In this document: positions 22,043 to 39,938 of the stretch, piece after piece
Position numbering within the stretch: position 1 is the first letter of the stretch
Layout: every line of letters starts with the position of its first letter
Sequence record: PP445229.1
Source: Escherichia phage EC.W2-6
Length of the DNA: 64,000 nt
Reading direction: 5' to 3' (one strand)
Program-made: the position numbers and the translations under genes
The notes under the pieces: model-generated
Database searches by the model: none
What the model was told of the DNA's origin: nothing
The model's input: only the letters and a program-made list of their open reading frames with translations

Positions 22043-25000
22043 TCACTCCTTAGGTCGAACTCTTACACGGAGTCTCGATTGACGCTTACTGCGTTCAAGC
22101 TTCTCTGACAATGAGCCACGTTTAATCTTAGGCTTCCCTTCGTCATTAAACTTCTCCAAGAACTGCAAGTACTCAGTACGATTTGTTGTCTTGTAAGAAG
22201 GAATCTTGATATCAGGGTTCTCTTCAATCACACGTCTCATCTTCGCTACATCATCCCTACCAAGCAACTTACTCTTAGCCTGTTCAGCTGTAGAACCAAA
22301 GATCTTCTCCAGTGCTCTGGATTTGTTACCACCTGCGGAAGAAGCACCAAGTTTAGCAATGGCAGAGTAATCATCAGCACTAAACCAAGCTACTGGATTA
22401 TCACCATACTTCTTCTTGTTTTCAGCAGCAGTCTGCAATGCACGTACAAAGCGACGGTTGTTACCAGCCTTATCTGCACCATGAACCCTGTCTAAAACTT
22501 CAGCCACACTAGCTAATTCATCCAAGCTCTTCCCGCTTAAGAAAGCTTTCTCTACTTTATCAGCAAAGACCTCTTCCTGTTGTTTAATGCTTTCCAAGAT
22601 ATCAGAATTTGCTTGAGATTTTTCATCATCAGGTAGAGCAGAACGAATCTTCTCCATCTCCAATTCTTCCTCTTGCAGTTTCTTAATATCAGAGTCAACC
22701 TTCTGAGCCTCCTCAATAGCCTTCCTAGTATCCGCATCCAAGTTATCAAGCTTACCTTCAGTATCTCCAGTAACCTTAACAATCTCTTTCTCGATAGGAG
22801 TCATTGATTCGTACTTCTTAGCAAACTTCTCAACATCAGCTTCGATACGAGAACGAGCATTCTGATGTTCAGTAGGAGTCATAGGTTTCTCAAGAAGTGC
22901 ATAACGGTTGTCCATATAGGAACCAGCAAACGCTTCAGCATCCTCTCTAGATATGCCCTTATCTTCCATAGTACGCATCAGGCGGCGATGAATGTCATCA
23001 CGTTGACGTTGTACTGCCATAAGATCATTCTCACGCTCTTGGGCCGCTTTAAGCTCTTCACTGCGCTTAACTCTCTTGTCCACATCAAACTTACGGTTCA
23101 TCTCTTCCGCTTGCTCGTACATCTTGTTCCACTTGGCCTGACGAGCATCTTCCTCTGCATCAGTTAAACGACGCTGACGATCAAGGTAATCTGACTCGGC
23201 GTTGTGGATACGTTCAATGTAACTACGGAACTTCTCTGGAGGAACTGGAGAGTTCTTGTCATGGTGAGCAGCCAACTGTTTCAATGTACGAGATTCCTGA
23301 GCCTCACGAACAGGTTTAGGTAAACCTTCCATCATCTTCTCAATCTCACTCTTCTGAGCTGCAATAGCCTCTAAAGTTTTACGTTCATTCTCAACAGCAG
23401 CCTTAGCATCTGAACGAGCCTGAGCCTTTTTCCTGAGGGTAGCAAGACGTTCTTCACGAGCCTGTAAGTGCTTAGCAGCAGCTTCGTACTGAGAGTTCTT
23501 GTTAGCTTTGTTGAAGGCATTCACTTCTCTGTTGTAGGTGTTAATAAACCCATCCCAAATATCCTTCATCTGACCAACTTCCAAAGCCTCTTCCCTACCA
23601 GCCTTCTCTGAAGATTTAAACTTCCCATCTACAAAGTCATTCATCAGCTTACGCATAGCATCTTTCTGAGCAGGACGTAAAGGTTCTGAATCAATCAAAG
23701 CATCAATCTCAGACTGAAGCTCTTTCTTCTGATCAACCAGTTTAGGAGCATCTTTCTTATCGAAAGCTTTGTTCTCTTCTAGAGCTTGTTGGTACAGTCT
23801 ATCAAACTCATCCTCACGCTGCTTCTGATACAACCTTTCAGCACGACGTTTCAGACTATCCAAGTTAGTTACGTTCCCACCTAAACCTTTCTCTTCAGCA
23901 CGTAATGCCTTAGTAGCAATGTCTTCTGGCAGACCACGTTCTTTAACCCATTCAGCAAAATTAGTTCGTACAGTGTTGTTCTTAGCAGTAGCAATACCTT
24001 GCTGAGAGGCCAGCTGGTTACGAGCCATTTCTTCATGACGTTCAGTGTTGATAGCATTATCTTCCTGACGAATACGACGCATCAGTTCCTTAGGATCGCC
24101 TTTATAAGCCAAGAAGTTTTCAGCAGTAGCTTTAGCTTTAGCAGCCTTAGAGTACAGAGAACGAGCAAAGCGTTCTGCACGATCTTTAGTAGCCTGACGA
24201 GCAGCACTAGACATAGCAGCTAAACGTTCTACACCACTTGCCGGTTTAACGTCCTGTACAGCTTCCTTAGGAGCTTTAGGAGCACGAGCAGGTAACGGCT
24301 CAGCTTTGACTGTTGGTTCCTCTACGGTTGGTTCTGGAGCCTGTGCGGCCTCTTCTTGAGCACGTTGCTGTTCCATTGCACGACGCTCCTCTAGAGGGTT
24401 ACGAGCAGGGAGAGGTTCAGCCTGTGGAGCTTGTTCGACCGGAGCTTCTTGAGCTGCTGCTGCCTCTTCTTCAGCTCGACGCTGTTCAGCCTGACGGATA
24501 GCGCGTCTTTGCGCAACTAAATCACGAGCTGTGAGAGGGGTTTCTTGAGGAGTAGAAGAAGGAAGATTTTCTTCCGTCACAGTACTAGAAGAAGGCTCCC
24601 GAACCGGTTCGGTTTCCACGTCATTTTGCGTCTTAAATTTAATGTCATCAACAACTGGTTCTTCTTCCATCTTAGCACGAGCTTCATCAGCAGTAGATTT
24701 AGCACGAGCAACTTCCAAATCACCACGAGCCAGAGAGCGGATAGCTTCACTATTAGACTCTTGTTGCTTAACACGTTGAGAACGGGCACGCTGAGAAGAG
24801 AAGCGATTCAGAGCATATTTAGCAGCACCGAGAGTGTTCATCACCAGACTAGGAGAAGAAGCCTCACGGAATCCATCATCAGTCAAGGAAGTCCAACCAC
24901 GATCTTGGTTGCTCATGAATTTAGCTGTATTGTTCAGAGTATAAGCATCTTGAATAGGATTAAAACCTTCAGGCATACCTTTCAGTTTCTTCAACCCACC

Positions 25001-26464
25001 AATAGCTTTCTTCATCTCTGGAGAAACATTATCAGCCATCTTCTGTAGTTCAGCAGCTTTCTCTACAAAGTTATTAAAGTCTTCGCCATCACGAGCTTTG
25101 AATCGATTTGCTTCATTGTAGAAAGTCTTGTAAGCATCAATGAAATCACGGTCGGCTTGTGTACGGTTCTTAATATCAATCGGACTACCAGTAAAATCAC
25201 CAGAAGCTCGGAGAGAGGTTAATTCACGATCTAGATTATCTAGAACATCTGTAAGAGCTTTCGTGTTGTCTTTGGTGTAGTCAGCCATTGCATCCTTCAT
25301 AGCAACAGCCTGCTTCTGGTTGTGCTCGTTATCAGCGAATGCTTTACCACGAGTCTTAGCAGGAGAAGCTAAAGGGTTGAGGCCCGGAATGTTGGAATGT
25401 TCTTTCTGAATGGAAGCAGCTTTCTCAGCACGAGCTTGGTCAGTATTAAGAATACGCTGAGCAGCAGGAGAGTCTACAGCAACAGCATCTGTAATACGGA
25501 ATCCATTCTCATCCAGAAGGTTCAGAGCAGAAGCAGCGTTAGCAGTTTCAGCTTTAGAGTAAGCTTCTTTCAGTTCATCAATATTCTTAGCACTACGAAT
25601 TAGTTCATCATCAGCAGCAATATCAGTCTTCGCATACTCTGGAGTGTTCTTGAAGACAGTAGAATCCGGACGGTTAATCAAACCATGAACCCCACCAACT
25701 GCACCACCGAATGCAGCACCCATAGCACCTTCTTCGATAGCACCTTCTAATACATTAGCAAAGGTTGTATCATCTCCATGCTTGTTCTGAGCTTCAGCAG
25801 CACCTACAAGAGCGCCACCTTTAGCACCAGCCACTGCGTTAGTAGCAACGTTCTGACCAATACGTCCAAGTGTGGACTCAGCTGTACCAACAGCGCCCGG
25901 AAGGATTCTCTGAGCCGCATAGTTAGCACCACCAACTAAGGCTGCATCTAGAATAGATTTATCTTCCCCCTCTTCAGGGGTTTGGTCTGCATATGCACGA
26001 CCTGTCTCACGACCTGCGATGATAGCAGCAGCAGCCAATGGGTTAGCAACAGTCATACCAATATCACCAGCAACGCCAGCATACTGACCTACAGTTTTAC
26101 CAATCCCATCCTCAATCTTATCCATACGTTCTTTCAGAAGATTCTGAGAGTTCTCTTGGATACGCTTACCATAACTAGTTTGTGCTCCAGCTAGATTCTC
26201 ACCAATCTCAACTAAACCACCAATACCTTTAGCAGCACTAGCTGCAATATTTGCACCACCAGATTGAAGAGCATTTGACACACCTTGAGCAAACTCACCT
26301 ATAGCACCACGTTCTTCTTGTTGTGGTTGTGCTACTGGCTGTTCCTCAGGAATAGAGCCACCTGCTGCCTTATATTGTTCTCTCATTTGAGCTTGTTGCT
26401 CCGGAGAGGCATTCAGATACGCAGGAGCTTTGGAAGCTTCTTCCCACGGTTTAATGTTAGCCAT
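22043..26464 (-). CDS. large internal virion/ejection protein (1473 aa)
   Basis: Gly/Ala-rich N-terminus, long coiled-coil, AEPLPAR repeats; AAGGAGA RBS before ATG at 26464; last gene of late operon. Confidence 0.6.
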   Translation of the reverse strand: MANIKPWEEASKAPAYLNASPEQQAQMREQYKAAGGSIPEEQPVAQPQQEERGAIGEFAQGVSNALQSGGANIAASAAKGIGGLVEIGENLAGAQTSYGKRIQENSQNLLKERMDKIEDGIGKTVGQYAGVAGDIGMTVANPLAAAAIIAGRETGRAYADQTPEEGEDKSILDAALVGGANYAAQRILPGAVGTAESTLGRIGQNVATNAVAGAKGGALVGAAEAQNKHGDDTTFANVLEGAIEEGAMGAAFGGAVGGVHGLINRPDSTVFKNTPEYAKTDIAADDELIRSAKNIDELKEAYSKAETANAASALNLLDENGFRITDAVAVDSPAAQRILNTDQARAEKAASIQKEHSNIPGLNPLASPAKTRGKAFADNEHNQKQAVAMKDAMADYTKDNTKALTDVLDNLDRELTSLRASGDFTGSPIDIKNRTQADRDFIDAYKTFYNEANRFKARDGEDFNNFVEKAAELQKMADNVSPEMKKAIGGLKKLKGMPEGFNPIQDAYTLNNTAKFMSNQDRGWTSLTDDGFREASSPSLVMNTLGAAKYALNRFSSQRARSQRVKQQESNSEAIRSLARGDLEVARAKSTADEARAKMEEEPVVDDIKFKTQNDVETEPVREPSSSTVTEENLPSSTPQETPLTARDLVAQRRAIRQAEQRRAEEEAAAAQEAPVEQAPQAEPLPARNPLEERRAMEQQRAQEEAAQAPEPTVEEPTVKAEPLPARAPKAPKEAVQDVKPASGVERLAAMSSAARQATKDRAERFARSLYSKAAKAKATAENFLAYKGDPKELMRRIRQEDNAINTERHEEMARNQLASQQGIATAKNNTVRTNFAEWVKERGLPEDIATKALRAEEKGLGGNVTNLDSLKRRAERLYQKQREDEFDRLYQQALEENKAFDKKDAPKLVDQKKELQSEIDALIDSEPLRPAQKDAMRKLMNDFVDGKFKSSEKAGREEALEVGQMKDIWDGFINTYNREVNAFNKANKNSQYEAAAKHLQAREERLATLRKKAQARSDAKAAVENERKTLEAIAAQKSEIEKMMEGLPKPVREAQESRTLKQLAAHHDKNSPVPPEKFRSYIERIHNAESDYLDRQRRLTDAEEDARQAKWNKMYEQAEEMNRKFDVDKRVKRSEELKAAQERENDLMAVQRQRDDIHRRLMRTMEDKGISREDAEAFAGSYMDNRYALLEKPMTPTEHQNARSRIEADVEKFAKKYESMTPIEKEIVKVTGDTEGKLDNLDADTRKAIEEAQKVDSDIKKLQEEELEMEKIRSALPDDEKSQANSDILESIKQQEEVFADKVEKAFLSGKSLDELASVAEVLDRVHGADKAGNNRRFVRALQTAAENKKKYGDNPVAWFSADDYSAIAKLGASSAGGNKSRALEKIFGSTAEQAKSKLLGRDDVAKMRRVIEENPDIKIPSYKTTNRTEYLQFLEKFNDEGKPKIKRGSLSEKLERSKRQSRLRVRVRPKE

Positions 26465-26531
26465 AACGTCTCCTTTTATAAATAAAAATGTCCTACCCCC
26501 TATATACATTATAGAAGGCAGGACTTAGGTC

Positions 26532-28187
26532 TTATTGAGTAAACCAGCTAGTGTCTTCGACAGCTGATAAAGCACCATTGAGCTTAGGATTGGTTGCTGC
26601 ACCACCAACTGCTTCTTCTGCTTGTTCAGAGAAAACACCTAGAGGGTCATAGAAACCACCAGAAGGGATTGCACGGTTAACCAATGCAGTAGCTCTCTTC
26701 TTATCCATACCAGAACCGATGTAAGCTTCAATCGTAGCTCTCTTAGCATCAGCAACACCTTTCATTGCAGAGGTGTGACCAACGTTAGCTTGCTTACGAG
26801 CATAAGCAAGAGCAGAATCAGTAGGACGCCATCCAGATTTCAGTGCAAACTTGTTGCCAACACGAACGAAGATTGATGGGTCTTCTGCAAAGTGCCCCAA
26901 GTCTTCTTCGGTAAGAGAACGAGTAGCACCGATTTCAGCCCTTGCGGAGTTCATGATAGCCTGCATGTAAGCAGAACGAGCTGTCTGATAGTCTTTATCC
27001 TTAACAGCCTTATCAGCCAAATCCAAGTCTTTGTTAGACTGGTTAAACAGGCCACCTTTCTCTGCCCACTGCTTAGCAACCGTACCTTCAGCTGTATTCT
27101 GAGCAAGACGAACTTCTTTCGGGTTAAAGTTAAAACTCTGAGCAGCTTGTTCAGCACGTTCAGCCTTAACCTTATCACGATAACCAATCAACTCTTTCTG
27201 ACGTTCAAAGTTCATGTTAGCTCTTTCTTCAGCGGCACGACGAGTTTCATCAGCACGCTCACGCATAGTTTGCTCTTGAATCTGTTGACGTCTATCCCAT
27301 TCAGCATTTTGTCGTTCTTCACGAGCAGCATACAACGCTTCTTTCTGAGCAGGGTCTACAGCTCTCATCTTCAGTAGAGATGGGTCTCCGTTAGCAATAG
27401 CAGCTGCAATCGAGTCTTGAGAGAAGCCTTGTTCAATCAGAGCATCACGGTTAGCTTCCAGTTGCTTCTTAGTCTCATCTTGATTAGCCATTCCCTGACC
27501 AATCTGGAAAGCTTCAATAGGAGACTTACCTGACATAATGGAAAGACCTACACCCATCAAACCTGTGTAGAAACTAGAGTTCTGATAGAATGGTTCTTTC
27601 TGTAGCTTGTTCCAAGCTTCCGAAGGGTCTTTAGCTTTCGCAACTTGCAAGATATCATTGTTAACACGTTCCTGATCTTTAGCACGAGTAGCAGCAGCCA
27701 TTCCATCACCAGTATCTTGTCCTTGAGCAAGAGTATTAATCACACCTTGTGCCTGTTCCACCTGAGAAGGAGTAAACTCCATAGGACCAGCTTCTAACGG
27801 TTTAGTAGGAGGTGTTACCGGAAGAGGGTCACTAGGCATAAGCCCAGCATCCTGTAAACCTTGATCAGTGGATAGGTTAGGGTTAGACGCTACAGGGGCC
27901 GGTGCTCCAATATCAATACCTTGAAGACTTGTAGGAGTTCCTTGATTCTGCTGTTCCATAAGACGTTGCTGGAATCCCGGATTAACCATAGCAGTCTGAT
28001 CTTCTTCTGCCTGAGAGACAAGACCCGCAAGAGATGAAGGTACAGCAGGACGTTGATACATAGAAATATCTGCTGTCTGAGTTGGTCTAGCCATATAAGG
28101 AGAGGCCGAAGCCGCTCCCGGATTAACACCATAGAAAGTATTTCTCGGGTCACGACTTCTGACCTGAGCGTAAGTTGTCTGTTGCAT
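26532..28187 (-). CDS. virion structural protein (551 aa)
   Basis: Late-operon ORF with AGGAGA RBS; coiled-coil central region. Confidence 0.5.
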   Translation of the reverse strand: MQQTTYAQVRSRDPRNTFYGVNPGAASASPYMARPTQTADISMYQRPAVPSSLAGLVSQAEEDQTAMVNPGFQQRLMEQQNQGTPTSLQGIDIGAPAPVASNPNLSTDQGLQDAGLMPSDPLPVTPPTKPLEAGPMEFTPSQVEQAQGVINTLAQGQDTGDGMAAATRAKDQERVNNDILQVAKAKDPSEAWNKLQKEPFYQNSSFYTGLMGVGLSIMSGKSPIEAFQIGQGMANQDETKKQLEANRDALIEQGFSQDSIAAAIANGDPSLLKMRAVDPAQKEALYAAREERQNAEWDRRQQIQEQTMRERADETRRAAEERANMNFERQKELIGYRDKVKAERAEQAAQSFNFNPKEVRLAQNTAEGTVAKQWAEKGGLFNQSNKDLDLADKAVKDKDYQTARSAYMQAIMNSARAEIGATRSLTEEDLGHFAEDPSIFVRVGNKFALKSGWRPTDSALAYARKQANVGHTSAMKGVADAKRATIEAYIGSGMDKKRATALVNRAIPSGGFYDPLGVFSEQAEEAVGGAATNPKLNGALSAVEDTSWFTQ

Positions 28188-28200
28188 ATTTATCTCCTAA

Positions 28201-29169
28201 TTAAGTACTAGCCAACCCACCGATTACACCCCCAGCTAATGCACCCCAAGGCCCAAAGGAAGAGCCAGCTGCTGCACCACTCATAGCTCCACCAAGGAAA
28301 CCACCTTTGCCACCAGATGTTTTAGTAGTTGTAGTTTGTCCGAGAGCACCGTTAAGTACACCTGCTGCACCGAGTTGGTTATTGATATCTTGCCATCCCC
28401 AATTAGCTGCGTTCTGAGCATTCTGGTAGGCATTATCATATTCATTCTGTTGTTGCTGTTGTTGCTGCAACCCTGCATTCCATTGATTCATTATTTGCTG
28501 TTGAGACAAATTAGCACCCTGCTGACCTAGGTTAGAAAGGTTAGAACCAATATTAGAAAGACCAGAGAGAGCAGCTGCCTGATTCTGTCTATTACCAGAG
28601 AGGATGCTTTCAGCTTGGCTAATAGCCGAGTTATAGGCACTATTGGTAATATCTGTTGCTTGGCCTTGCATCTGATTCAGAGCATCACCTTGGGCAAAAG
28701 ACTTAGCCATACGAGCACCTGAACCTTGTTGACCAGCAAACTGTTGAGCTAACTGAGGAAGAGCATTACGTGCCAAGTTCTGTTGAACCTGTTCATTATT
28801 AGCTGTAATGGCTGCTTGCACAGCGTCATCATCATACAGTTGACCAGCGAGAGCACCAATCTGCTCTCCAGTAATCCCACCTTGTCCAGAGAGGCTCTGA
28901 TAACCTTTATAGGCATTATCTAGATAACCCAAGCCTTGACCTGCTGCATCCATATACTGCTGTGAGAGAGTACCTAGAGCGCCAGATTGTGCTAGGTTGT
29001 TAAGTGCCTCTGTCTGATTGTTATTAAACCCTACATTGTCACGATAAACATAATCCCCTGAACTAGTATTACCAATCTGTTGGTTAAGCTGGTCAATATA
29101 CTGTTGAATGTATTCAGGGCGAATCATTTGGGAAGTAGTTTTACTACCCCCGCCTCCGAAAAGTCCCAT
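28201..29169 (-). CDS. Gln/Asn-rich virion protein with C-terminal Gly-zipper segment (paralog A)
   Basis: Starts MGLFGGGGSKTTSQ, Q/N-rich, ends GGAMSGAAAGSSFGPWGALAGGVIGGLAST; AAGGAG RBS. Confidence 0.5.
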   Translation of the reverse strand: MGLFGGGGSKTTSQMIRPEYIQQYIDQLNQQIGNTSSGDYVYRDNVGFNNNQTEALNNLAQSGALGTLSQQYMDAAGQGLGYLDNAYKGYQSLSGQGGITGEQIGALAGQLYDDDAVQAAITANNEQVQQNLARNALPQLAQQFAGQQGSGARMAKSFAQGDALNQMQGQATDITNSAYNSAISQAESILSGNRQNQAAALSGLSNIGSNLSNLGQQGANLSQQQIMNQWNAGLQQQQQQQNEYDNAYQNAQNAANWGWQDINNQLGAAGVLNGALGQTTTTKTSGGKGGFLGGAMSGAAAGSSFGPWGALAGGVIGGLAST

Positions 29170-29181
29170 ATCAAATCTCCT

Positions 29182-30234
29182 TTAGTTTGCTCCAAATGCC
29201 CCTAAGACACCACCTAAGATATTACTACCTGCTGTGGATAACCAGTTAGACTGACCTTTCTGTTGAGAAAGATTAGAACCACCAATCATAGGACCAGCCA
29301 TTCCAGATTGCCCACCTGAGTTGTTATAGGAACTCCAAGCATTCTGAGTCTGTTGATTAGGAGAGAAAGCACCCATACGACCTGCAATACCTAATCCAGT
29401 GATACCAGCACCTAGGAGCTGTTGTCCAGTATTAACCCCCGGAGCAGCATTCTTAATCGTGTACCCAGCCATTGGGCTTACACTATTTAATACATTAAGT
29501 TGGTTGTTAAGCTGATTCCACCTATACTGTTGAGAGCCAATAGCGTTCTGCCAATTAATATCAGCTTGAGCTTGGGCTTGTTGCTGTTGTAGATTACCAG
29601 CCATGAGTTGATTCTGGATAGCTTGTTGAGTTGCCTGAACACCTTGAGCACCAAGATTGAGATTCTGTCCAGCCAATCCTGACTGAGCACCAAGTAAGCC
29701 CCTCTGGAAGTTTTGGTCTTGTTGAAGAGCACTGATTCCCATATTCTTGCCACTGATAGTACGAGCTAAGTTTGTATTAGCACTGTTCAGAGCAGCACCT
29801 TGAGCAGCAGCTCTACGGAGAGAGCCTGAATCAGAACCATTTCCGAGGGATACATTGGAAGCTGCCTTACTAGTCGCTTGAGCAAGAGCTGAGTTATTCA
29901 ATCCTTTACTAAAGTTATTAACACCATCAGCAGTTAGACCACCACCATTGACAATATTCTGATACTGCTGTGCAAGAGAGTTTAATTGGTCCAACCCTTG
30001 CTGTGTACGAGGCGTGTACATATCAGCCAATTGCTTCTGAGTAGTAGAAGCTGCTAAGTTGTTCAGAGCACCCTGTTGGTTGCCATTAAACCCAGCCAGT
30101 TGTTGGGAGATGAATCCCGGATCGTTGTTCTGCATATTCTGAGCATTAGCAACAATCTGCTTCAGCAGGGCATCAACCTGAGAGGAAGGGGCCACTGTGG
30201 TTTTGCTAGAAGCTGATTTTCCAAATAAAGACAT
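29182..30234 (-). CDS. Gln/Asn-rich virion protein with C-terminal Gly-zipper segment (paralog B)
   Basis: Starts MSLFGKSASSKTT, Q/N-rich, ends AGSNILGGVLGAFGAN; AAGGAGG RBS. Confidence 0.5.
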   Translation of the reverse strand: MSLFGKSASSKTTVAPSSQVDALLKQIVANAQNMQNNDPGFISQQLAGFNGNQQGALNNLAASTTQKQLADMYTPRTQQGLDQLNSLAQQYQNIVNGGGLTADGVNNFSKGLNNSALAQATSKAASNVSLGNGSDSGSLRRAAAQGAALNSANTNLARTISGKNMGISALQQDQNFQRGLLGAQSGLAGQNLNLGAQGVQATQQAIQNQLMAGNLQQQQAQAQADINWQNAIGSQQYRWNQLNNQLNVLNSVSPMAGYTIKNAAPGVNTGQQLLGAGITGLGIAGRMGAFSPNQQTQNAWSSYNNSGGQSGMAGPMIGGSNLSQQKGQSNWLSTAGSNILGGVLGAFGAN

Positions 30235-30253
30235 AAGTCCTCCTTAAAGATTA

Positions 30254-31036
30254 TTACTTTACACCAATGCTAGCCAGACGTCTGAGCACTGCTTGTGTTT
30301 GTGGACTGTACTGAGAACCTGCTGCATGTGGTGCACTTGCCCTCTGAACTGTTTGAGAAGTGGGAGGTTTACCAGCAAGCATAGCAGCTACCCCTAATAC
30401 TGCATTACCAAAGTTCTGTTGAGGTTTCTGATTTTCGCCTTCCTGCACTTCATCAGAGTAAAACTCTACTGGATTTCCACCTAAAGCACCTGTCTTAGAA
30501 GCAGCAATCTCTGCCTGAGTTGGAGCTTGTGCGGCCTTCTCTCTATCTAACAAGTCAGGACTAAACTGATTGACTGGTTGAACAGCTTGCAAAGCTCCAA
30601 CAGGGTTAGCAATCTGAGAAGCTGCATCACCATAGAAAGGAAGAAAGTGTTTATTGTTCATGGAGTCAAGAGCTTGTGGAGTAAACCCCTTTTTACCAGC
30701 GAACATTTGCTTAGCTCCACCGATACCTTCTGAATAACCAACCATTGCTTTCTTAACATCACCATTAAAAGCTTTTAAGTTATCTCTTATGTAACGAGCG
30801 CCCATATCAATATTCTTTGCTGGGTCAAGTCTATCTTCTAGTTTGTAACCGTAATCTTTAGCCAACCCTTTACTGATCTGCATTAAACCTACAGGACCAG
30901 TTCCAGAGGCCACTGTAGGACGACCACTGGACTCTCTTTGGATGACAGCATGAATCAAAGCAGCAGGAATCCCATACTTCTTTGAAGCTTGCTGTACCAT
31001 TGGGTCTAGTTCTTCGATACCCATTCTGATTGCCAT
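30254..31036 (-). CDS. lytic transglycosylase (SLT domain) virion protein
   Basis: RESSGRP...GLMQIS SLT motif. Confidence 0.75.
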   Translation of the reverse strand: MAIRMGIEELDPMVQQASKKYGIPAALIHAVIQRESSGRPTVASGTGPVGLMQISKGLAKDYGYKLEDRLDPAKNIDMGARYIRDNLKAFNGDVKKAMVGYSEGIGGAKQMFAGKKGFTPQALDSMNNKHFLPFYGDAASQIANPVGALQAVQPVNQFSPDLLDREKAAQAPTQAEIAASKTGALGGNPVEFYSDEVQEGENQKPQQNFGNAVLGVAAMLAGKPPTSQTVQRASAPHAAGSQYSPQTQAVLRRLASIGVK

Positions 31037-32081: not shown

Positions 32082-33050
32082 TTACCAACTCCCTATTCTT
32101 ATGCGAAGAGTTCCACTCCCATCATAAAAATCTATTCTATTACCATTCATCCACAACTGAGAACCACCTGTACCACCCATAACAAAATCACCACCAACAG
32201 TAAGTCTCCAGTTAGAACCCCACATAGAACCAGCAGTGATTTTATCCGCTGATAAGTTCTGAATCTGAGCATTGGAGATAGATACGTTATCAATCTGTGC
32301 CCATTGGATCCTAGCGTTGGCAATCTGAGCAGTTGTGATGTTGACGTTCTTTATGTCAGCGAATTCCATCCTAGCTCGCCCACCCTCAAATACGAAGGGG
32401 GTATTCCCAGAGCTGCCATCACCAACAATAAATTTGTTAGCTGTTACTTGGAATTGACTGTTTGTTCCGTTGTTAGTTAACTTGACCCCAGCATATCTTC
32501 CGTTGACTGTAGAGTTAACACCCCACGTAGCTTCATACTCAGAGAGTTTCATATACTGAGAAAGGCTTCCGTTGATATTTTGCAGTTCTGTCTGAACAAG
32601 AGCAATCTCTTGACCTTGATCGTTAACAATACCTTCTACTGTCTGAATTTTAGTTGTGTTACCTTCGATGCTGGTCTTAAAACCAGATACAGTGCTTTCT
32701 AGCTTCACAGGGGGTTGAACAGAATTATCCCAAATGTCCTCAGTGGACAGGTTCCCCATCTGGGTTTGGATATCTGCAATAGCTGTTTCTATCTCTGTAG
32801 TAATTCTATTCTCAAGCTCATCAAATTGTAGATTCATTGCATTAAGAGCTTTAATACGAACATCAATCTCTTCGTGAATTTCATCTATAGCTTGGAACAT
32901 TTGGTTAGTAGCTGTGCTAACTTTTTGTAATTCATCATACACGGCTACGTTATATGTTTCTGTGTCCTGTACATTATTGAGAAACCCAACGTTGTACGGG
33001 AGTGTGGTGTTGTTGCGACCAGTGTTCTTACGAAAACCACCTGCACCCAT
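32082..33050 (-). CDS. tail-fibre-like protein
   Basis: Coiled-coil N-half then beta-rich repeats (ISNAQIQNLSADKI); start at internal ATG 33050 with GGAGGA RBS. Confidence 0.5.
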   Translation of the reverse strand: MGAGGFRKNTGRNNTTLPYNVGFLNNVQDTETYNVAVYDELQKVSTATNQMFQAIDEIHEEIDVRIKALNAMNLQFDELENRITTEIETAIADIQTQMGNLSTEDIWDNSVQPPVKLESTVSGFKTSIEGNTTKIQTVEGIVNDQGQEIALVQTELQNINGSLSQYMKLSEYEATWGVNSTVNGRYAGVKLTNNGTNSQFQVTANKFIVGDGSSGNTPFVFEGGRARMEFADIKNVNITTAQIANARIQWAQIDNVSISNAQIQNLSADKITAGSMWGSNWRLTVGGDFVMGGTGGSQLWMNGNRIDFYDGSGTLRIRIGSW

Positions 33051-33093
33051 AAGTTCCTCCAAAACAATAAAAGGGGCACGAAGCCCCTTGTTG

Positions 33094-36000
33094 TTATCTC
33101 CGCCCGCCAACAGCAAACTCTATCGTTAAACCATTGATAGCAGCATTACTATTAACATCATTATCTATAACATTATAGAAAAGGTATGGATGGTTCAGTC
33201 TCACCGAGACATGCCTGTCAACACCGATCGTATATGTCTTAGATGTGTGTGGGTGTCCATATTCATTTGAGAATTGACTACCACCAGCTTCAAATATGTA
33301 AGTACCTGAACCAGTTGTCTGAGGTCGGAACCTGTTAATATGCTTCTGATTCCACTCATTCGTCACATTATCAAAATCTATACCAGTCCTCTCCAACCTC
33401 ATTTCCAGAGGCTTCTCTATAACAACATCATTTAGCCTGTCATAGAAGTAATCAAGAGCACCTACATCCACTTGATAGAATCCCTTCAAGAATGAACCTA
33501 CTATCGTAACCCTCTGTCTAAAGTTTGTTGCATCCTTTCTCCAAACGAGTTCTTTAATAGATGGGTCATCCCAAGTGATTTCTTGGAAGTCAGACCAGAT
33601 TGGACCTCTTTCTAAAACAGGAGGATCAACCAGACCAATACACTGAGCATATGGGATAGTACGGAATGACCAAGTATCAAACTCGTAGTTCCATACAGCA
33701 GCTTTAGTACAAGCGAAGCTTTCTTTTGGCTCTCCCGGACCTACGTACAGAACCCAAACTTCTTTCTTATCCTGATGCAAATGCACTCGAGTTGCTAGAG
33801 GGTTAACCAGACATACCTCGTTAATCAGCATATTCTTAACACGGTTAGATGCAATTGACTTCTTAGTTGCACCGTTGTGTAAGATTACATCGTTCTGAGT
33901 AACTACGAAGTGACTACCTTCTACTTCAACCACACACTCAGGAGCAAGGATACCAGAGTCGTTAAAGAGCTTCTTGAACATTAGAGGTTGGTACGTGTTA
34001 TTAGTCGGAGAACCAATATACGTTTCAAACTCTGTATAAACGAACAAGTAATCTTTAAGAGGTAGGATATCAATCAAGCTACCATTAGAATCTGCTAAGT
34101 CAATGTAACCAGCATACCCATTCTCTAGAGCCTGAGTCTGCCCTACGATGTTAGAAGCTAAGTCCGAAGACACAACTCGATCATAGGCAAAGTCATCCCA
34201 CAGTGTAGGAGCCTTGTTCTCATTGGCAAAGTTAGACCAACGAAGACGAAGCGGGTAGTTAGTGGTAACACCAGAAGCATTAGCCTCTCTCATATTCAGA
34301 GCAAAAAGACGGTTGTTAAAAGATCTTACTCTCTCACATTTCCAGTTAAACTTCTTGACTGAAGGGTTTCCATCACTATCCACCACTGTTTGCTCACCCC
34401 ACCCCGGAAGGTCTACAAAGTATTCTGATTCGAATTCTTTTACCTGAGGAGTTTCATAGTGAGTTGTAGCAACTGCACAGTTAGAGATAACAGCGTGATA
34501 CCAAGGGTAGTCATCAAAAGCATCGTAATCCTTCTGAGTCATCTGACTGACAGTACATGTTACGTTAATCTCTCCTTTACGAAGAGCAACCAGTTTGATA
34601 GATTTACCAGTGACTGAAGTTGTAGAAACATAACCAGTTTTATCAACAGACCACTGATAAGAGTACTCACCTTCTGGAGAAGCTGTGGCTGTAATGACAA
34701 CCTCTTCACCAACATCAAGAGAAGCGCTGACAATATCTAAGGTTACAGATGACAAAGGGGTTGCCAGTAAAGAAGCTCTTGCAAAACCTTCAATGTCATT
34801 CACGTTAGAGTAGTCATAGAAGTTATTACCTTCGTACATCCCTGACGTATCAATACCGGATGTAGGCTCAGCAAAATAAACCGTCTCTTCACTTTCAGGA
34901 GGAGTTACTACTTCTTCCTCTTGAGTTTCTACTGACTCTGACACAGGAGCAGCAAATGCCATAGAACTTGTTCTCATTGTTCTTCCAGCTAAATCTACAC
35001 GTACAGTACAGACAGCAACCCTGTTGCCTTCTTCAGTGGTAGCTGTAATCTCAGTAAAGCCAGCAAGTAAAGCGTTGATCGTCCCTTGTGTGCTAGTCCC
35101 TGATACTGTTGCAATATTTGGATTAGAAGAGGTCCAAGTAATATTTTGATTAGGGGCGTTAGCAGGAGAAAGGGTAGCAGTTAAGATATACTGAGAACCT
35201 CTACTCACAATAACATCTGACTGGCTTAAAGAGATACTATCAATCTGAGGGATGGAAACAACCTCACAAGAAGCAGTCTTAGTTCCGTTATCAGCAGTGA
35301 TTGTTACATTACCTTCTCCATTCGCTGTAATGACAGCAGTTAAAGAATTGGCGTTAGGGGTTACGGATACAATAGAAGCGTTATTGCTGGACCAAGTTAC
35401 AGGAGTCTTGCCAGTAACAGCCGTGAGAGTAGTAGTCCCTCCTTTACGAATTGTAACAGTGTCTTGACTCAAGAAGATGCCTGAATCACCGTCGATGATA
35501 TTAACAGCAATCTGAGCCACTACGGATTCGTTGGCAGTAGAGATAGTTACTACAAGATTACCTTCTTTCTCAAAAGATGTTAGAGTAGCAAGTTTAGAGT
35601 CACTAGGGTCTACCGTAATACTTCCATAGGATGAGTTACTAACCTCCCAAATAAGATCAGTATTGTTAGCATCAGCAGGGAGAAGAGAAACCTCTAGATT
35701 CTTGGTCTGATTGAAGTTCATTGAGATAGTTGATTCTTTAGGAACGATCTGAGAAACAACTGGATAAATCTTAATTGAGGCAGAAGCCTTCTTAGTGACT
35801 GTAGCAACCTTACGGCTAATATCAGTCAAGCTTTCATCTGTCAGTTTATATAACTTCTTATCCGTACCTACAACAAGAAAGCTATTACCTGCGCTATAAT
35901 AATCGAAAGGCATAGAAACGAAAGACAGAGGGGTTAAATCCTTATCTTCATCTACATAAGAAAGAGGGGCATTGCCCCCCGTCTTAAATACTCTCTGCTC

Positions 36001-37769: not shown

Positions 37770-39938
37770 TCACTTCTCTGCTAACTTCGCTTCTAGAACT
37801 TCAATACGCTTCAGCAGATCTTGAACAACCTGCATGGTATCTAAAAGCATTGGAGTTGCATCCAACTCTTTCTGTTCCTGCTCTACCCCATCGTTGTCAT
37901 GGAATTTACGAGTTTTAACATAAAGAGGTTCAACTTTCTCTGCCTGCTGTGCAATGATACCACGACGAGTTCTTCCTTGATTATCATTGTTGTACACAAA
38001 CGATTTGAAATCCAAACCTTTTATCGCACGAATTGCTTCATCAGGAGAGATATCTTGGATGTTATGTTTCAACTTTTCATCAGATACAGGATTCATAGCA
38101 AGAGTATAAGTTCCGGTTGAACTTGGCTGCCAAGTGTAGTAGTAAATCTCGTTCCTGTTTGGTCGGAGAGTTAAACGACAACCATATTTGTTGTCTTCAT
38201 CTCCCGAAACATGCCAACAGGAATCAGCAAAAGATCCAGCATCATTGTGAATCATCCCTACATGGGTAGTAGTTTTGTATCCACCTTGGGATGCTTGGGA
38301 AGCACTCAGTATAGAGTTAAAAGAGTAGTTAGCACCAACCCCTTGGTTGTCTATAGAAAACGTCCCTCTGCGACTTCCTGTTTCACTCCAAGACATCAAT
38401 GTTCTAGACCGAGCAACATATCTATCAGAGTTCAGGGTTCCAGAATCGTCAAAAGCTAATTGCTTGGTAACTCCTTTGGTTTTATTATAAACATTGATAA
38501 TCCCATAATAAGCTCCGTCGATATAAGCATCAGTTTGGAGCGTAGTAGAGGCTTCTACTTCTGAACCTATTTTATATTCAGAAACAACTGAACCGCTAGT
38601 TACCCTAGTTCCACCAGCAGGACGGTTTGCATCACTGTTAATAACTGACCAAGAGGTGTTAGCAGCAGTAAAACCTCCATGAGCACGAATAGTCCAAACA
38701 CCTACAAAGTTACGGGTCAGAATCTCCTCAGTGGAGCGACCATAAATAGGACTGGAACGCGATGCGTCAAAGTTTGTGGATATGTATTTACCTCCAGCCC
38801 CCACTGGAGCCACATCGTCTGTAGAGGTGATTGATTGAATTGCCCCGTTAGTCGCCACCTGCCCCGGAGCGGAGGCTAGTGTTACCATTGTGTGAGGGGA
38901 CGCATATGTGATATTCGGTGCAGCAGAATCAAACACTTGGCCATTTGCAGCAGAATTACCACCATCACCACGGCCATATAAAGCTCTCAGTGACCCCTCT
39001 TGGATACCATTTCGGTCAGGAACACGGAAAGTTGTTGTACCATTTCCGGTAGAATACCTACCCCTCTGATAGATATTAGACAACCAAAGAGAGTCTTCAA
39101 TTGGGGATAGCAGTTGTGCATAAGCCCATAAATCTGGGTAGTCAGCACGATTCAAAAGCTGCCCATCCGACACAACCTCAAAAGCTGGGATGAAAGCTCG
39201 ACTGTCACGTAAATGGAAATCACCAATACCAAAGTTAGAGATACCGCTCATCGTAGGACCACCAGAGCCACCACCACTGTTTCGAAGCTGTCTCAAAGTA
39301 ACCGCATCATAATCACCAACTGCATCAGGGACAGTTACTGGTTGAGTGAAAGTAACTTTCTGTGTGAGCTGTTTGATATCAGAGTTAATCCCTGTACGAG
39401 TAACACCTACCGTACGACCTTTAGAGTCTTTAACATAAGAACCAATTGCAGCAAAAGGCAAATCCTCAATCTCAGGACGGTAACGTTTAGAATAAACTGG
39501 ATACTTAGTTTCTACCCCAGAGTCATTCTGGTCAACAACCTGAAGACGACCAGCAGAATGAATCTCTACACCTTGAACTGAAGAGGCATAACTACCAATC
39601 TTGATTGAGTTATCAGTAGTAACTTTCATCATATCAACTGATTCTACACCATTAGCTCCAGTAGAACGGAATGGGGTATCATTAACAACCCAAGGGTCTT
39701 CTCGGAACAGCGCACCAGACATAATAGGTTGAATCGAATCCAGCACAAAATCTTTAGATGCACCCTCTGTTTTAGTTTGATAGGTAGCAGCTGCGTCGGT
39801 TTTCTGTAAATATTTTCCGGTGAGGTTAATAGCTCCAGTCTGTCCATCTACAGTAGAAACCCCAACAACAGCCGCGTCTCTGGTTACAACCACATGAGGC
39901 ATCATTATACCAGATTTGGGCATTAATTCTCTAGACAT
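37770..39938 (-). CDS. tail fibre/tailspike with C-terminal S74 intramolecular chaperone domain
   Basis: C-terminal SDEKLKHNIQDI...GLDFKSFVY matches the self-cleaving chaperone (S74) motif. Confidence 0.8.
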   Translation of the reverse strand: MSRELMPKSGIMMPHVVVTRDAAVVGVSTVDGQTGAINLTGKYLQKTDAAATYQTKTEGASKDFVLDSIQPIMSGALFREDPWVVNDTPFRSTGANGVESVDMMKVTTDNSIKIGSYASSVQGVEIHSAGRLQVVDQNDSGVETKYPVYSKRYRPEIEDLPFAAIGSYVKDSKGRTVGVTRTGINSDIKQLTQKVTFTQPVTVPDAVGDYDAVTLRQLRNSGGGSGGPTMSGISNFGIGDFHLRDSRAFIPAFEVVSDGQLLNRADYPDLWAYAQLLSPIEDSLWLSNIYQRGRYSTGNGTTTFRVPDRNGIQEGSLRALYGRGDGGNSAANGQVFDSAAPNITYASPHTMVTLASAPGQVATNGAIQSITSTDDVAPVGAGGKYISTNFDASRSSPIYGRSTEEILTRNFVGVWTIRAHGGFTAANTSWSVINSDANRPAGGTRVTSGSVVSEYKIGSEVEASTTLQTDAYIDGAYYGIINVYNKTKGVTKQLAFDDSGTLNSDRYVARSRTLMSWSETGSRRGTFSIDNQGVGANYSFNSILSASQASQGGYKTTTHVGMIHNDAGSFADSCWHVSGDEDNKYGCRLTLRPNRNEIYYYTWQPSSTGTYTLAMNPVSDEKLKHNIQDISPDEAIRAIKGLDFKSFVYNNDNQGRTRRGIIAQQAEKVEPLYVKTRKFHDNDGVEQEQKELDATPMLLDTMQVVQDLLKRIEVLEAKLAEK

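What the first reader, a model, noticed from the sequence alone, without database searches (positions are those of the whole stretch)
28201..30234. Paralogous Gln/Asn-rich virion proteins with C-terminal glycine-zipper segments
Two adjacent late proteins (322 and 350 aa) share N-termini (M.LFG...SKTT), long Q/N/G-rich low-complexity cores and Gly-zipper hydrophobic C-termini. Such composition is unusual for virion proteins and suggests membrane-inserting ejection or channel components.
Basis: seen in the sequence. Interest (0 to 1): 0.45.

Follow-up and report, generated by a model that had tools for sequence, protein, structure and literature searches.

The report
Paired phage DNA-ejection (pilot) proteins
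These two neighbouring genes encode the already-described internal "ejection" proteins gp21 and gp22 of SU10/phiEco32-type coliphages, which leave the capsid at infection and probably help build the DNA channel through the cell envelope, so the finding is real but largely known.

Summary
Two tightly packed minus-strand genes with strong ribosome-binding sites (28201-29169, 322 aa; 29182-30234, 350 aa) encode true paralogues. Each has an MxLFG...TT N-terminus, a Q/N/G/A/S-rich, charge-poor core predicted to be helical, and conserved C-terminal glycine-zipper segments.

The window is a Kuravirus. The proteins are 100% and 97% identical to SU10 gp22 and gp21. Published work found both in virions by mass spectrometry and found them lost, with gp20, gp23 and gp24, when the genome is released. 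The "ejection component" reading is therefore already established experimentally. Membrane insertion remains an inference.

New here:
- gp22 is homologous to LUZ24 gp53, the orthologue of Pa223 gp56, which a preprint proposes as an outer-membrane channel. gp21 is a more divergent duplicate.
- P22 gp7 shares the composition, architecture and C-terminal "PWGA" glycine hairpin, but homology is only suggestive.
- The ~300-aa module is widespread. It is often the N-terminus of 800-2000-aa internal proteins, followed directly by a self-cleaving Peptidase_S74 chaperone domain. The Kuravirus proteins end where that cleavage would occur.

No structure could be predicted with confidence. Verdict: already known, modest interest.

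The parts
28201..29169 (-). CDS, 322 aa. Orthologue of SU10 gp22 / phiEco32 'putative DNA injection protein'. This is the conservative paralogue of the ejection-protein module.
   Evidence: ORF. PHROG 4287, E 3.5e-109. 100% identical to SU10_022. hhalign to LUZ24 gp53, E 2.3e-8.
29182..30234 (-). CDS, 350 aa. Orthologue of SU10 gp21. This is the divergent paralogue of the same module.
   Evidence: ORF. PHROG 4287, E 5.5e-117. 97% identical to SU10_021. Profile-profile match to the gp22 family, 99.9%, E 4.5e-32.
29177..29182 (-). Shine-Dalgarno AAGGAG for the 322-aa gene, overlapping the TAA stop of the upstream gene.
   Evidence: Sequence read.
30239..30245 (-). Shine-Dalgarno AAGGAGG for the 350-aa gene.
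   Evidence: Sequence read.
29134..29169 (-). Conserved N-terminal motif of gp22 (MGLFGGGGSKTT, residues 1-12).
   Evidence: Alignment A1. The motif recurs in distant homologues.
30196..30234 (-). Conserved N-terminal motif of gp21 (MSLFGKSASSKTT, residues 1-13).
   Evidence: Alignment A2.
28345..29115 (-). gp22 Q/N-rich core predicted helical (residues 19-275).
   Evidence: DSSP of the AF2 model, which has low confidence (pLDDT 35.5). Positional conservation. Helical periodicity in some segments.
29479..30183 (-). gp21 Q/N-rich core predicted helical (residues 18-252).
   Evidence: DSSP of the AF2 model (pLDDT 40.7). Conservation. Periodicity.
28204..28338 (-). gp22 Thr-rich linker plus glycine-zipper hairpin (residues 278-322: TTTTKTSGGKGGFLGGAMSGAAAGSSFGPWGALAGGVIGGLAST).
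   Evidence: Motif and hydropathy scan. Near-invariant in family A1. Sub-threshold Pfam matches to the glycine-zipper 2TM families.
29362..29421 (-). gp21 first glycine-zipper hydrophobic segment (residues 272-291, QLLGAGITGLGIAGRMGAFS).
   Evidence: Highest hydropathy in the protein, 1.16. Conserved in A2.
29185..29244 (-). gp21 second, C-terminal glycine-zipper segment (residues 331-350, WLSTAGSNILGGVLGAFGAN).
30254..31036 (-). Context: gp20, a 260-aa lytic transglycosylase that is co-ejected.
   Evidence: Pfam SLT, E 1.2e-23. SU10 gp20.
26532..28187 (-). Context: gp23, a 551-aa ejection protein in the position of P22 gp20, T7 gp15 and Pa223 gp54.
   Evidence: PHROG 12130. SU10 gp23. Shares a hydrophobic motif with the distal part of fused homologues.
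22043..26464 (-). Context: gp24, a 1473-aa ejection protein in the position of T7 gp16. The probable true start is Met16 of the mechanical ORF.
   Evidence: The PHROG 14629 match starts at residue 16. The SU10 gp24 CDS is 4422 nt.

Best explanation
The two genes encode the small ejection (pilot) proteins gp22 and gp21 of a Kuravirus. They are made late and packaged inside the capsid together with gp20 (transglycosylase), gp23 and gp24. They are expelled through the portal-nozzle channel once the tail needle is released.

Shown, by others, on proteins 97-100% identical: presence in virions and loss on genome release.

Inferred: outside the capsid the charge-poor, Q/N-rich helical cores refold and oligomerise into the virion-proximal part of the trans-envelope DNA conduit. 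The C-terminal glycine-zipper helices pack into a ring that inserts into the outer membrane at the tip of the nozzle. This is the role proposed for Pa223 gp56 and, in other lineages, for P22 gp7 and T7 gp14.

The two paralogues have been kept side by side throughout the Kuravirus-type lineage. They are therefore non-redundant, most simply as a hetero-oligomer or as two stacked rings.

In many relatives the same module is followed directly by a Peptidase_S74 domain. From established knowledge of endosialidase and T5 fibre maturation, this is a trimerising, self-cleaving chaperone domain. That placement suggests a stoichiometry that is a multiple of three. It also suggests that a free C-terminus right after the glycine zipper, as in gp21 and gp22, is the mature functional state.
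For: - Identity and synteny with SU10 gp20-24.
- Virion mass spectrometry and loss from genome-release intermediates (PMC4281155; PMC9509320).
- PHROG 4287 'DNA ejection protein' for both proteins.
- gp22 family against LUZ24 gp53: hhalign score 62.5, E 2.3e-8 over 216 columns, against score 24 for the reversed control. phmmer of LUZ24 gp53 hits gp22-family members, and an HMM of the gp22 family (alignment A1) hits only gp53 among LUZ24 ORFs.
- LUZ24 has the same gene order, 313 aa / 505 aa / 1055 aa. The Pa223 preprint names the corresponding gp56 a gp14-like outer-membrane channel with C-terminal transmembrane helices.
- The glycine zippers are the most hydrophobic and among the most conserved parts. 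They give sub-threshold matches to the 'Glycine zipper 2TM' Pfam families, as does the P22 gp7 C-terminus.
- P22 gp7 has the same composition and a near-identical 'S-S-x-x-P-W-G-A-x-x-G-G-x-I-G' hairpin.
- The five-gene module, with both paralogues adjacent, is conserved in a relative at 44% identity. The two families co-occur on contigs of matching length at every divergence level.
- S74 lies directly after the module in P0144, P0145 and P0154, in Cronobacter phage A24, and in 31 of the 150 best homologues by motif.
Against: - There is no direct evidence here or in the literature for membrane insertion, for which membrane, or for stoichiometry.
- The glycine-zipper segments are only moderately hydrophobic (19-residue hydropathy 0.9-1.2) and short (about 15 residues per arm).
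- AlphaFold2 monomer models are unreliable (pLDDT 35.5 and 40.7), so no fold comparison was possible.
- There is no similarity to T7 gp14.
- The link to P22 gp7 is only 59-63% hhalign probability over 53 columns. HMMER finds nothing and Pfam P22_gp7 does not match.
- gp21 on its own matches neither LUZ24 gp53 nor gp7.
- The outer-membrane assignment of Pa223 gp56 is itself bioinformatic.
- S74 domains are otherwise typical of fibres and spikes, so a needle- or plug-like role is conceivable.
Confidence: 0.6

Rival explanations
1. gp21 and gp22 are ejected, but they form the soluble periplasm-spanning tube that lengthens the nozzle. On this reading the Q/N-lined helical bundle resembles in principle the phiX174 H tube or the Sf6 gp12 tube. 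The glycine zippers would serve helix-helix packing within the oligomer rather than lipid insertion.
For: The long predicted helices make up about 80% of each protein. Hydrophobicity of the C-termini is weak. Glycine zippers are helix-packing motifs in general (established knowledge). The SU10 authors propose that the ejection proteins extend the nozzle across the periplasm.
Against: gp23 (551 aa) occupies the syntenic position and size class of the known tunnel proteins (P22 gp20 at 471 aa, Pa223 gp54 at 505 aa). The homologue Pa223 gp56 is predicted to be membrane-embedded. There is no sequence similarity to phiX174 H.
Confidence: 0.2
2. One or both paralogues insert into the inner (cytoplasmic) membrane and form the distal pore of the conduit. 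The two copies would then be specialised for the two membranes.
For: There are two conserved, non-redundant paralogues with different C-terminal designs: a single compact hairpin in gp22, and two zipper segments separated by a ~40-residue Q/N/S/G linker in gp21. SU10's own 28-nm nozzle and needle may already deal with the outer membrane.
Against: In characterised podophages the inner-membrane end is formed by the largest ejection protein (T7 gp16, P22 gp16). gp24 is available for that role. There are no data on localisation.
Confidence: 0.12
3. They are trimeric, fibre-like internal plug or needle-associated proteins. On this reading they are released with the tail needle gp18 and gate the channel, and are not part of the conduit.
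For: Homologues carry Peptidase_S74 domains, which otherwise mature trimeric fibres and spikes. One homologue is annotated 'putative tailspike' in phage phiM5. The needle gp18 and gp20-24 disappear together on genome release.
Against: The SU10 tail and needle were modelled without them, and no resolved density was assigned to them. Fused homologues continue into a cell-wall hydrolase and a gp23-like motif, which is ejection-protein cargo. The genomic position is with the internal proteins.
Confidence: 0.05
4. The Q/N-rich cores are unconstrained low-complexity or disordered filler, and the resemblance between the two proteins is compositional.
For: Extreme composition and very low AlphaFold confidence.
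Against: The alignments over ~300 columns are nearly gap-free and have dozens of invariant residues at 40-50% identity. Profile-profile E is 4.5e-32 against 0.009 for the reversed control. 97 cluster representatives match at E <= 1e-10 in an exhaustive search.
Confidence: 0.02

Closest known systems
Escherichia phage SU10 gp21 and gp22 (and phiEco32 'putative DNA injection protein'), Kuravirus ejection proteins
   Same: Sequence identity of 97% and 100%, with the same gene order gp20-gp24. Shown by mass spectrometry to be in virions and absent from genome-release intermediates.
   Different: Nothing of substance; this window is the same kind of phage. Their structure, copy number, membrane target and the reason for two copies are not described in those papers.
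Bruynoghevirus Pa223 gp56 / LUZ24 gp53 (313 aa), proposed 'gp14-like' outer-membrane channel ejection protein (preprint 10.1101/2025.06.11.659172)
   Same: gp22 is a detectable homologue (hhalign E 2.3e-8 over 216 columns). The size is the same, as is the G-rich/KTTS N-terminal motif, the Q/N-rich core, the TTSSGGG linker and the C-terminal glycine zipper. The synteny is also the same: small protein, then ~505 aa, then ~1055 aa.
   Different: Bruynogheviruses have one copy plus a 126-aa Gly-rich protein, where Kuravirus has two full-length paralogues. gp21 alone does not match gp53. The channel role of gp56 is itself a prediction.
Salmonella phage P22 gp7 (Pfam PF25688 P22_gp7; 'IVP-B' class)
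   Same: It is an ejection protein, about 12 copies per virion (abstract of PMC8402733). Composition matches: Q+N+G+A+S 58%, charged 10.5%. It has a GGKGG motif near the N-terminus, and its C-terminal glycine hairpin 'SSTPWGAAIGGGIGLLGSLF' compares with gp22 'SSFGPWGALAGGVIGGLAST'. There is a co-linear weak profile match at 59-63% probability.
   Different: It is about 100 residues shorter. There is no Pfam or HMMER match, so membership is unproven. The N-terminal 20 residues of P22 gp7 are removed by host OpdA (record note), and nothing comparable is known here.
T7 gp14 (internal virion protein B, outer-membrane pore of the ejectosome)
   Same: It is the functional analogue: the smallest ejection protein, encoded before the tunnel and inner-membrane proteins, helical, and pore-forming in the outer membrane.
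   Different: No detectable sequence similarity. It is 196 aa with 4-5 predicted transmembrane helices spread along the protein, less Q/N-rich and more charged. In T7 the transglycosylase is part of gp16, whereas here it is the separate gp20.
Peptidase_S74 (intramolecular chaperone, self-cleaving) C-terminal domains of endosialidase and T5-type fibres
   Same: Many homologues of the gp21/gp22 module carry this domain immediately after the glycine zipper.
   Different: gp21 and gp22 themselves lack it. Here the domain is attached to an internal ejection module, not to an external fibre. Self-cleavage in these proteins is untested.

Membership tests
PHROG 4287 'DNA ejection protein' | Significant full-length match to the family HMM | tested here: met
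   322-aa protein: E 3.5e-109, residues 1-310. 350-aa protein: E 5.5e-117, residues 1-350.
Kuravirus SU10 gp21/gp22 orthologues | Near-identical sequence and the same position between the SLT protein gp20 and gp23 | tested here: met
   100% and 97% identity. Gene order as in SU10_020-024.
Podophage ejection (pilot / internal virion) proteins, operational definition | Present in the mature virion | not testable with these tools
   Literature only: mass spectrometry of SU10 particles detected gp21 (53% coverage) and gp22 (49%). The supplementary table lists both as detected.
Podophage ejection (pilot / internal virion) proteins, operational definition | Released from the particle on genome ejection | not testable with these tools
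   Literature only: genome-release intermediates lack gp20-24.
Bruynoghevirus gp56(Pa223)/gp53(LUZ24) family | Sequence homology | tested here: met
   gp22 family against LUZ24 gp53: 95% probability, E 2.3e-8, 216 columns; reversed control score 24. phmmer hits to family members. gp21 family alone: no match, so it is linked only through gp22.
Bruynoghevirus gp56(Pa223)/gp53(LUZ24) family | Synteny: small membrane-type protein upstream of ~500-aa and ~1000-aa+ ejection proteins | tested here: met
   LUZ24 gp53 (313 aa) - gp52 - gp51 (505 aa) - gp50 (1055 aa), against gp21/gp22 - gp23 (551 aa) - gp24 (1473 aa) here.
P22 gp7 family (Pfam PF25688) | Match to the Pfam model or to a family profile | tested here: inconclusive
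   No Pfam hit for the whole proteins or the C-termini. HMMER with a gp7 profile finds nothing at E < 0.4. hhalign gives 59-63% probability, E 7e-5 over 53 columns, above the reversed controls at E 0.02-0.08.
P22 gp7 family (Pfam PF25688) | C-terminal glycine-rich hydrophobic hairpin with a central PWG turn; Q/N/G/A-rich, charge-poor body | tested here: met
   By inspection; composition. This is a resemblance and does not prove homology.
T7 gp14 (IVP-B) | Sequence similarity to gp14 | tested here: not met
   hhalign probability 0.1%. The test used a single gp14 sequence and so has limited sensitivity.
T7 gp14 (IVP-B) | Four to five predicted transmembrane helices along a ~200-aa protein; outer-membrane localisation after ejection | tested here: not met
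   Only the C-terminal 35-80 residues are hydrophobic, with hydropathy <= 1.16. Localisation is not testable.
Glycine-zipper membrane domains (Pfam Rick_17kDa_Anti '2TM', Gly-zipper_YMGG, Gly-zipper_Omp) | Repeated GxxxG/GxxxGxxxG in a hydrophobic hairpin, with a score above the Pfam cut-off | tested here: inconclusive
   Motifs are present. Pfam scores are sub-threshold: 16.1 bits against 24.2, E 0.011 for gp22; none for gp21. Relatives P0136 and P0124 reach 21.5 and 15.7 bits.
Peptidase_S74 self-cleaving chaperone-domain proteins | Presence of the S74 domain with the SD(E/R)R.K motif | tested here: not met
   Absent from gp21 and gp22. Present directly after the homologous module in relatives.
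phiX174 H pilot protein | Sequence similarity | tested here: not met
   hhalign probability 0.5%. The only analogy is a Gly-zipper plus a Q/N-rich helical protein.

The most novel reading that the evidence does not exclude
gp21 and gp22 may represent a large family of podophage pilot proteins that has no Pfam model (712 cluster representatives at E <= 1e-3). On this reading the family is the SU10/LUZ24-lineage counterpart, and a very remote homologue, of P22 gp7.

Its mature form would be an oligomer of 3n subunits: a Q/N-lined helical conduit with a glycine-zipper membrane ring. It would be produced either from free-standing genes, as here, or by Peptidase_S74 self-cleavage from 800-2000-aa ejection polyproteins that also carry the wall hydrolase and a gp23-like part. 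In Kuraviruses a duplicated pair would form a hetero-oligomer.

An S74 chaperone domain maturing an internal ejection protein, rather than an external fibre, was not found described in the searchable literature.
Probability: 0.3. Interest if true: 0.55.

Novelty: already known. Interest (0 to 1): 0.3.

Why it matters
Ejection proteins are the least understood parts of short-tailed phages, and Kuraviruses are used as therapeutic coliphages.

The basic identity of these two proteins is already published, so the finding itself adds little.

The by-products could help specialists. They are the link of gp22 to the Bruynoghevirus channel candidate, the possible link to P22 gp7, and the discovery that the same module is often the self-cleaved N-terminus of giant ejection polyproteins. 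Together they define module boundaries for expression constructs, suggest stoichiometries to try in multimer modelling, and give annotation pipelines a way to recognise the 'small pilot protein' in thousands of uncultured podophages.

Tried and rejected
- Pfam, NCBIfam and PDB sequence searches gave nothing for either protein. The only NCBIfam line was a chance-level FlgB hit (E 0.025, 15 bits against a cut-off of 169).
- AlphaFold2 with family alignments gave pLDDT 35.5 and 40.7. I therefore did not run fold search, since matches to such models are meaningless. Only the helix/coil pattern was used, with caution.
- hhalign to T7 gp14 and phiX174 H found no similarity. The idea of homology to the phiX174 H tube was dropped and kept only as a loose analogy.
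- The P22 gp7 link was tested several ways. It stayed suggestive, so I did not file gp21/gp22 as gp7-family members.
- A broad HMM of the distal part of the fused homologues found nothing in the window, and phmmer of gp20, gp23 and gp24 against the homologues found nothing. Only a short hydrophobic motif links gp23 to them. The regex that selected those segments was written after I had seen gp23, so this link is weak.
- Helical-periodicity analysis was only marginally significant for most segments.
- The phiEco32 paper (PMC2587145) and the 2026 P22 in-situ preprint could not be opened. Only the start of the P22 abstract was seen.
- Plus-strand ORFs overlapping the region are 41-64 aa and have no support. 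They were rejected as genes.
Full report
**1. What is in the sequence.**

The region holds two minus-strand ORFs exactly as described: 28201-29169 (322 aa) and 29182-30234 (350 aa).
- Each starts at an ATG preceded by a strong Shine-Dalgarno site (AAGGAG and AAGGAGG).
- The genes are 12-19 nt from their neighbours, which is typical of a phage structural operon.
- No plus-strand ORF in the region exceeds 64 aa.

The two proteins are extreme in composition.
- Q is 14-15%, N 10-12%, G 13-15% and A 13%.
- Q+N+G+A+S is 62%, against 34% in the window's other long ORFs.
- Charged residues are 7-9%, against 24%.
- [GAS]xxxGxxx[GAS] motifs pile up in the last ~40 residues of the 322-aa protein and in two segments (272-291, 331-350) of the 350-aa protein. 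These are also the most hydrophobic stretches, though only moderately so (19-residue hydropathy 0.9-1.2).

**2. The paralogy is real.**

Biased composition can fake similarity, so this was tested in four ways.
- BLASTP with compositional adjustment gives E = 9e-12 at 30% identity, co-linear over ~300 residues.
- Both proteins match one PHROG (4287, 'DNA ejection protein') end to end.
- Alignments of each family (A1, A2) are almost gap-free down to 40% identity, with dozens of invariant positions.
- Profile-profile comparison of the two families gives 99.9% probability and E = 4.5e-32 over 271 columns. The same comparison with one family reversed gives score 27, E 0.009.

The core is therefore compositionally biased but positionally constrained, and is not unconstrained low complexity.

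**3. What phage this is, and what is already known.**

The 6.1 kb around the genes is 99-100% identical to several Escherichia phages of the genus Kuravirus, which includes SU10 and phiEco32.
- The 322-aa protein is 100% identical to SU10 gp22 ('putative DNA injection protein').
- The 350-aa protein is 97% identical to SU10 gp21.
- The neighbours are gp20 (SLT transglycosylase), gp23 and gp24.

Two published studies bear directly on these proteins.
- Mirzaei et al. (PMC4281155) detected gp20-24 by LC-MS/MS in SU10 particles. Sequence coverage was 53.4% for gp21 and 49.1% for gp22.
- Siborova et al. (PMC9509320) confirmed them in purified virions. They showed that in-vitro genome-release intermediates lack gp20-24 and the needle gp18, and concluded that gp20-24 are ejection proteins.
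- No cryo-EM density could be assigned to gp20-24.

Its own refutation tests fail.

**4. Relatives and what they add.**

*(a) Conservation of the pair.* Word-indexed searches found about 50 clusters for each protein, down to ~40% identity. The two families co-occur on contigs of the same length at every level of divergence. In one relative at 44% identity the module is SLT(291)-333-322-490-1108, next to SU10-type capsid and portal genes. The duplication is therefore old and both copies are kept.

*(b) Single-copy relatives with an S74 domain.* The more distant prolate podophages (Grimontviridae: Cronobacter A24, Aeromonas BUCT695, Proteus P59) have a single 400-410-aa homologue; the local HMM copy-count check covered A24 only. 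In these proteins the module is followed by a Peptidase_S74 domain. The Pfam score is 22.2 bits for A24, at the cut-off, and weaker for the other two.

*(c) LUZ24 gp53 and Pa223 gp56.* LUZ24 gp53 (313 aa) is a homologue of gp22.
- hhalign gives E 2.3e-8 over 216 columns, against score 24 for the reversed control.
- phmmer of LUZ24 gp53 hits gp22-family members.
- It is the only LUZ24 ORF hit by an HMM of the gp22 family.
- It has the same layout: a G-rich/KKQKTTS N-terminal motif, a Q/N-rich core, a TTSSGGGGGGG linker and a glycine zipper.
- It has the same synteny: 313 aa, then 505 aa, then 1055 aa.

By gene order and size, its Pa223 orthologue is gp56. The Cingolani group's preprint proposes gp56 as the 'gp14-like' outer-membrane channel, with predicted C-terminal transmembrane helices and an AF3 channel at nine copies. 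gp21 alone matches neither LUZ24 gp53 nor P22 gp7. gp22 is thus the conservative copy and gp21 the divergent duplicate.

*(d) The wider family.* An exhaustive HMM search with both families found 712 cluster representatives at E <= 1e-3 and 97 at E <= 1e-10. Many are 800-2000-aa proteins whose first ~300 residues match the whole profile.

By a motif-based classification of the best 150:

| Architecture | Count |
|---|---|
| Free-standing module | 47 |
| S74-type SD(E/R)R.K motif within 60 residues after the glycine zipper | 31 |
| [K/R][D/G]GGR[I/V] motif at that point | 28 |
| Other extensions | 37 |
| Fragments | 7 |

- Pfam confirms Peptidase_S74 at residues ~296-353 of P0144, P0145 and P0154. 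It also finds a SleB-type cell-wall hydrolase further along P0144.
- P0154 sits at the end of the tail module of a podophage with an SU10-type adaptor.
- 24 of 68 long homologues carry a hydrophobic motif (AAGLGMMAG.SP..G.NIG.GG) that also occurs in gp23 at residues 208-235. A motif HMM built without gp23 picks gp23 as the only significant ORF in the window: E about 1e-6, next best 0.4. The segments were selected with a regex written after I had seen gp23, so this link is suggestive only.

Taken together, the long proteins look like fusions of what Kuravirus encodes as separate genes: the gp21/22 module, a wall hydrolase and a gp23-like part.

**5. P22 gp7, T7 gp14 and phiX174 H.**

P22 gp7 is strikingly similar in kind.
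- Q+N+G+A+S is 58% and charged residues 10.5%.
- Its most hydrophobic stretch is a C-terminal glycine hairpin.
- Its end, 'SSTPWGAAIGGGIGLLGSLF', mirrors gp22 'SSFGPWGALAGGVIGGLAST'.

Statistically the link is weak.
- hhalign of the gp22 family against a gp7 family alignment gives 59-63% probability, E about 7e-5 over 53 columns. That is above the reversed controls (E 0.02-0.08) but not conclusive.
- HMMER and Pfam P22_gp7 find nothing.
- The C-termini of both gp22 and gp7 give sub-threshold matches to the same Pfam glycine-zipper families.

T7 gp14 and phiX174 H show no similarity.

**6. Structure.**

AlphaFold2 on the family alignments gave unusable confidence: pLDDT 35.5 and 40.7, pTM about 0.2.
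- All models draw long helices through residues ~18-275 (gp22) and ~18-252 (gp21), with coil for the C-termini.
- Column-averaged hydropathy shows 3.5-3.7-residue periodicity that beats shuffles clearly in two gp22 segments and only marginally in most others.
- Low monomer confidence is what one would expect of proteins that fold only as oligomers after ejection. That is an interpretation, not evidence.

**7. Most likely mechanism.**

*Shown, in the literature:* gp21 and gp22 are packaged and then expelled at genome release.

*Inferred:*
- They leave through the portal-nozzle channel after the needle goes.
- The charge-poor helical cores refold into an oligomeric tube that continues the nozzle.
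- The glycine-zipper helices form the membrane-embedded ring, most likely in the outer membrane. This follows from homology to the Pa223 gp56 candidate and from analogy with the roles proposed for P22 gp7 (the virion-proximal part of the conduit, extending from gp10) and for T7 gp14 (the outer-membrane pore).
- gp20 cuts peptidoglycan. gp23 takes the periplasmic-tunnel role and gp24 the inner-membrane role, judged by position and size.
- The S74 domains in relatives mark the module boundary just after the zipper. Because such domains trimerise (established knowledge for endosialidase and T5 fibres), they suggest a 3n stoichiometry.
- The retained duplicate suggests a hetero-oligomer or two rings.

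The composition may reflect the need to travel unfolded or extended through a narrow channel and then self-assemble without energy input. That is speculation.

*Confidence:* about 0.9 that these are ejection proteins, and about 0.5 for the outer-membrane channel role.

**8. Rivals.**
- A soluble periplasmic tube, with the zippers used for helix packing (about 0.2).
- An inner-membrane role for one or both copies (about 0.12).
- A trimeric plug or needle-associated protein (about 0.05).
- Mere low-complexity filler (refuted by section 2).

**9. Novelty and score.**

The genes, their virion location and their release are published for proteins 97-100% identical, so the finding is 'already known'. 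The points below go beyond what I found in the searchable literature, but they are incremental and computational:
- the gp22-LUZ24 gp53 link;
- the suggestive gp7 link;
- the asymmetry of the two paralogues;
- the S74 and polyprotein context.

Interest: 0.3.

Noticed in passing
window 26464-26524 (- strand): The mechanical ORF for the 1488-aa protein starts 15 codons too early. The PHROG match begins at residue 16, and SU10 gp24 is 1473 aa, which puts the start at 26464. The extra codons overlap a strong terminator-like hairpin (15-bp stem plus T-run, 26524-26490) between gp23 and gp24. It may be an attenuator or an mRNA-end element inside the ejection-gene block.
   Followed up: partly
homologues P0147, P0148, P0155, P0158, P0162 and others; also internally in P0144 near residue 505: In 28 of the 150 best homologues the glycine zipper is followed not by S74 but by a recurrent [K/R][D/G]GGR[I/V]..Y[A/D].GG motif. 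The motif can recur within the same polyprotein. Its function is unknown; it could be a linker, a cleavage site or a docking site. It is not present in gp20, gp23 or gp24 of this window.
   Followed up: partly
window 27486-27569 (gp23 residues 207-234), and the distal parts of P0144, P0145, P0148 and others: gp23 shares a hydrophobic motif (GL..M.G.SP....IG.G) with 24 of 68 long fused homologues. This suggests those polyproteins contain a gp23-like part. The motif HMM gives E about 1e-6 for gp23, with 0.4 for the next ORF, but segment selection was not independent of gp23.
   Followed up: partly
window 37773-39938 (- strand, 722-aa ORF): My ad-hoc S74 HMM hits the C-terminal end (residues 618-677) of this large ORF, presumably a tail fibre with its own intramolecular chaperone domain. 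It was not checked against Pfam.
   Followed up: no
window 32082-33116 (- strand): The listed TTG-start ORF of 344 aa is probably 322 aa (start near 33050), as in SU10 gp18. The PHROG match begins at residue 23. SU10 gp18 is the tail needle that is lost together with gp20-24 at genome release.
   Followed up: partly
proteins P0043, P0044, P0039; locus L008: gp22 homologues at ~44% identity are recorded on contigs of 317 kb and 390 kb attributed to Enterobacter cloacae and E. coli genome assemblies. This is odd for relatives of strictly lytic Kuraviruses. It could reflect a prophage, a carrier state or a mis-assembly. The only place I read was a 59.9-kb phage-like contig.
   Followed up: partly
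L002:11878-12258 (LUZ24 gp52, 126 aa): The small protein between LUZ24 gp53 and gp51 is also Gly/Ala-rich with zipper-like segments and ends in ...SKLFGG, reminiscent of the MGLFGG N-terminus of the Kuravirus proteins. No profile match was found.
   Followed up: partly
window, whole: GC skew changes sign at about 22 kb and about 52 kb. The first change coincides with the start of the minus-strand structural/ejection block; the gene strand around 52 kb was not examined.
   Followed up: no
SU10 supplementary table (PMC9509320): The table lists gp23 as 515 aa, whereas the SU10 CDS and this window give 551 aa. It also labels gp24 'Nuclear Pore Complex', evidently a spurious annotation transfer.
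   Followed up: no
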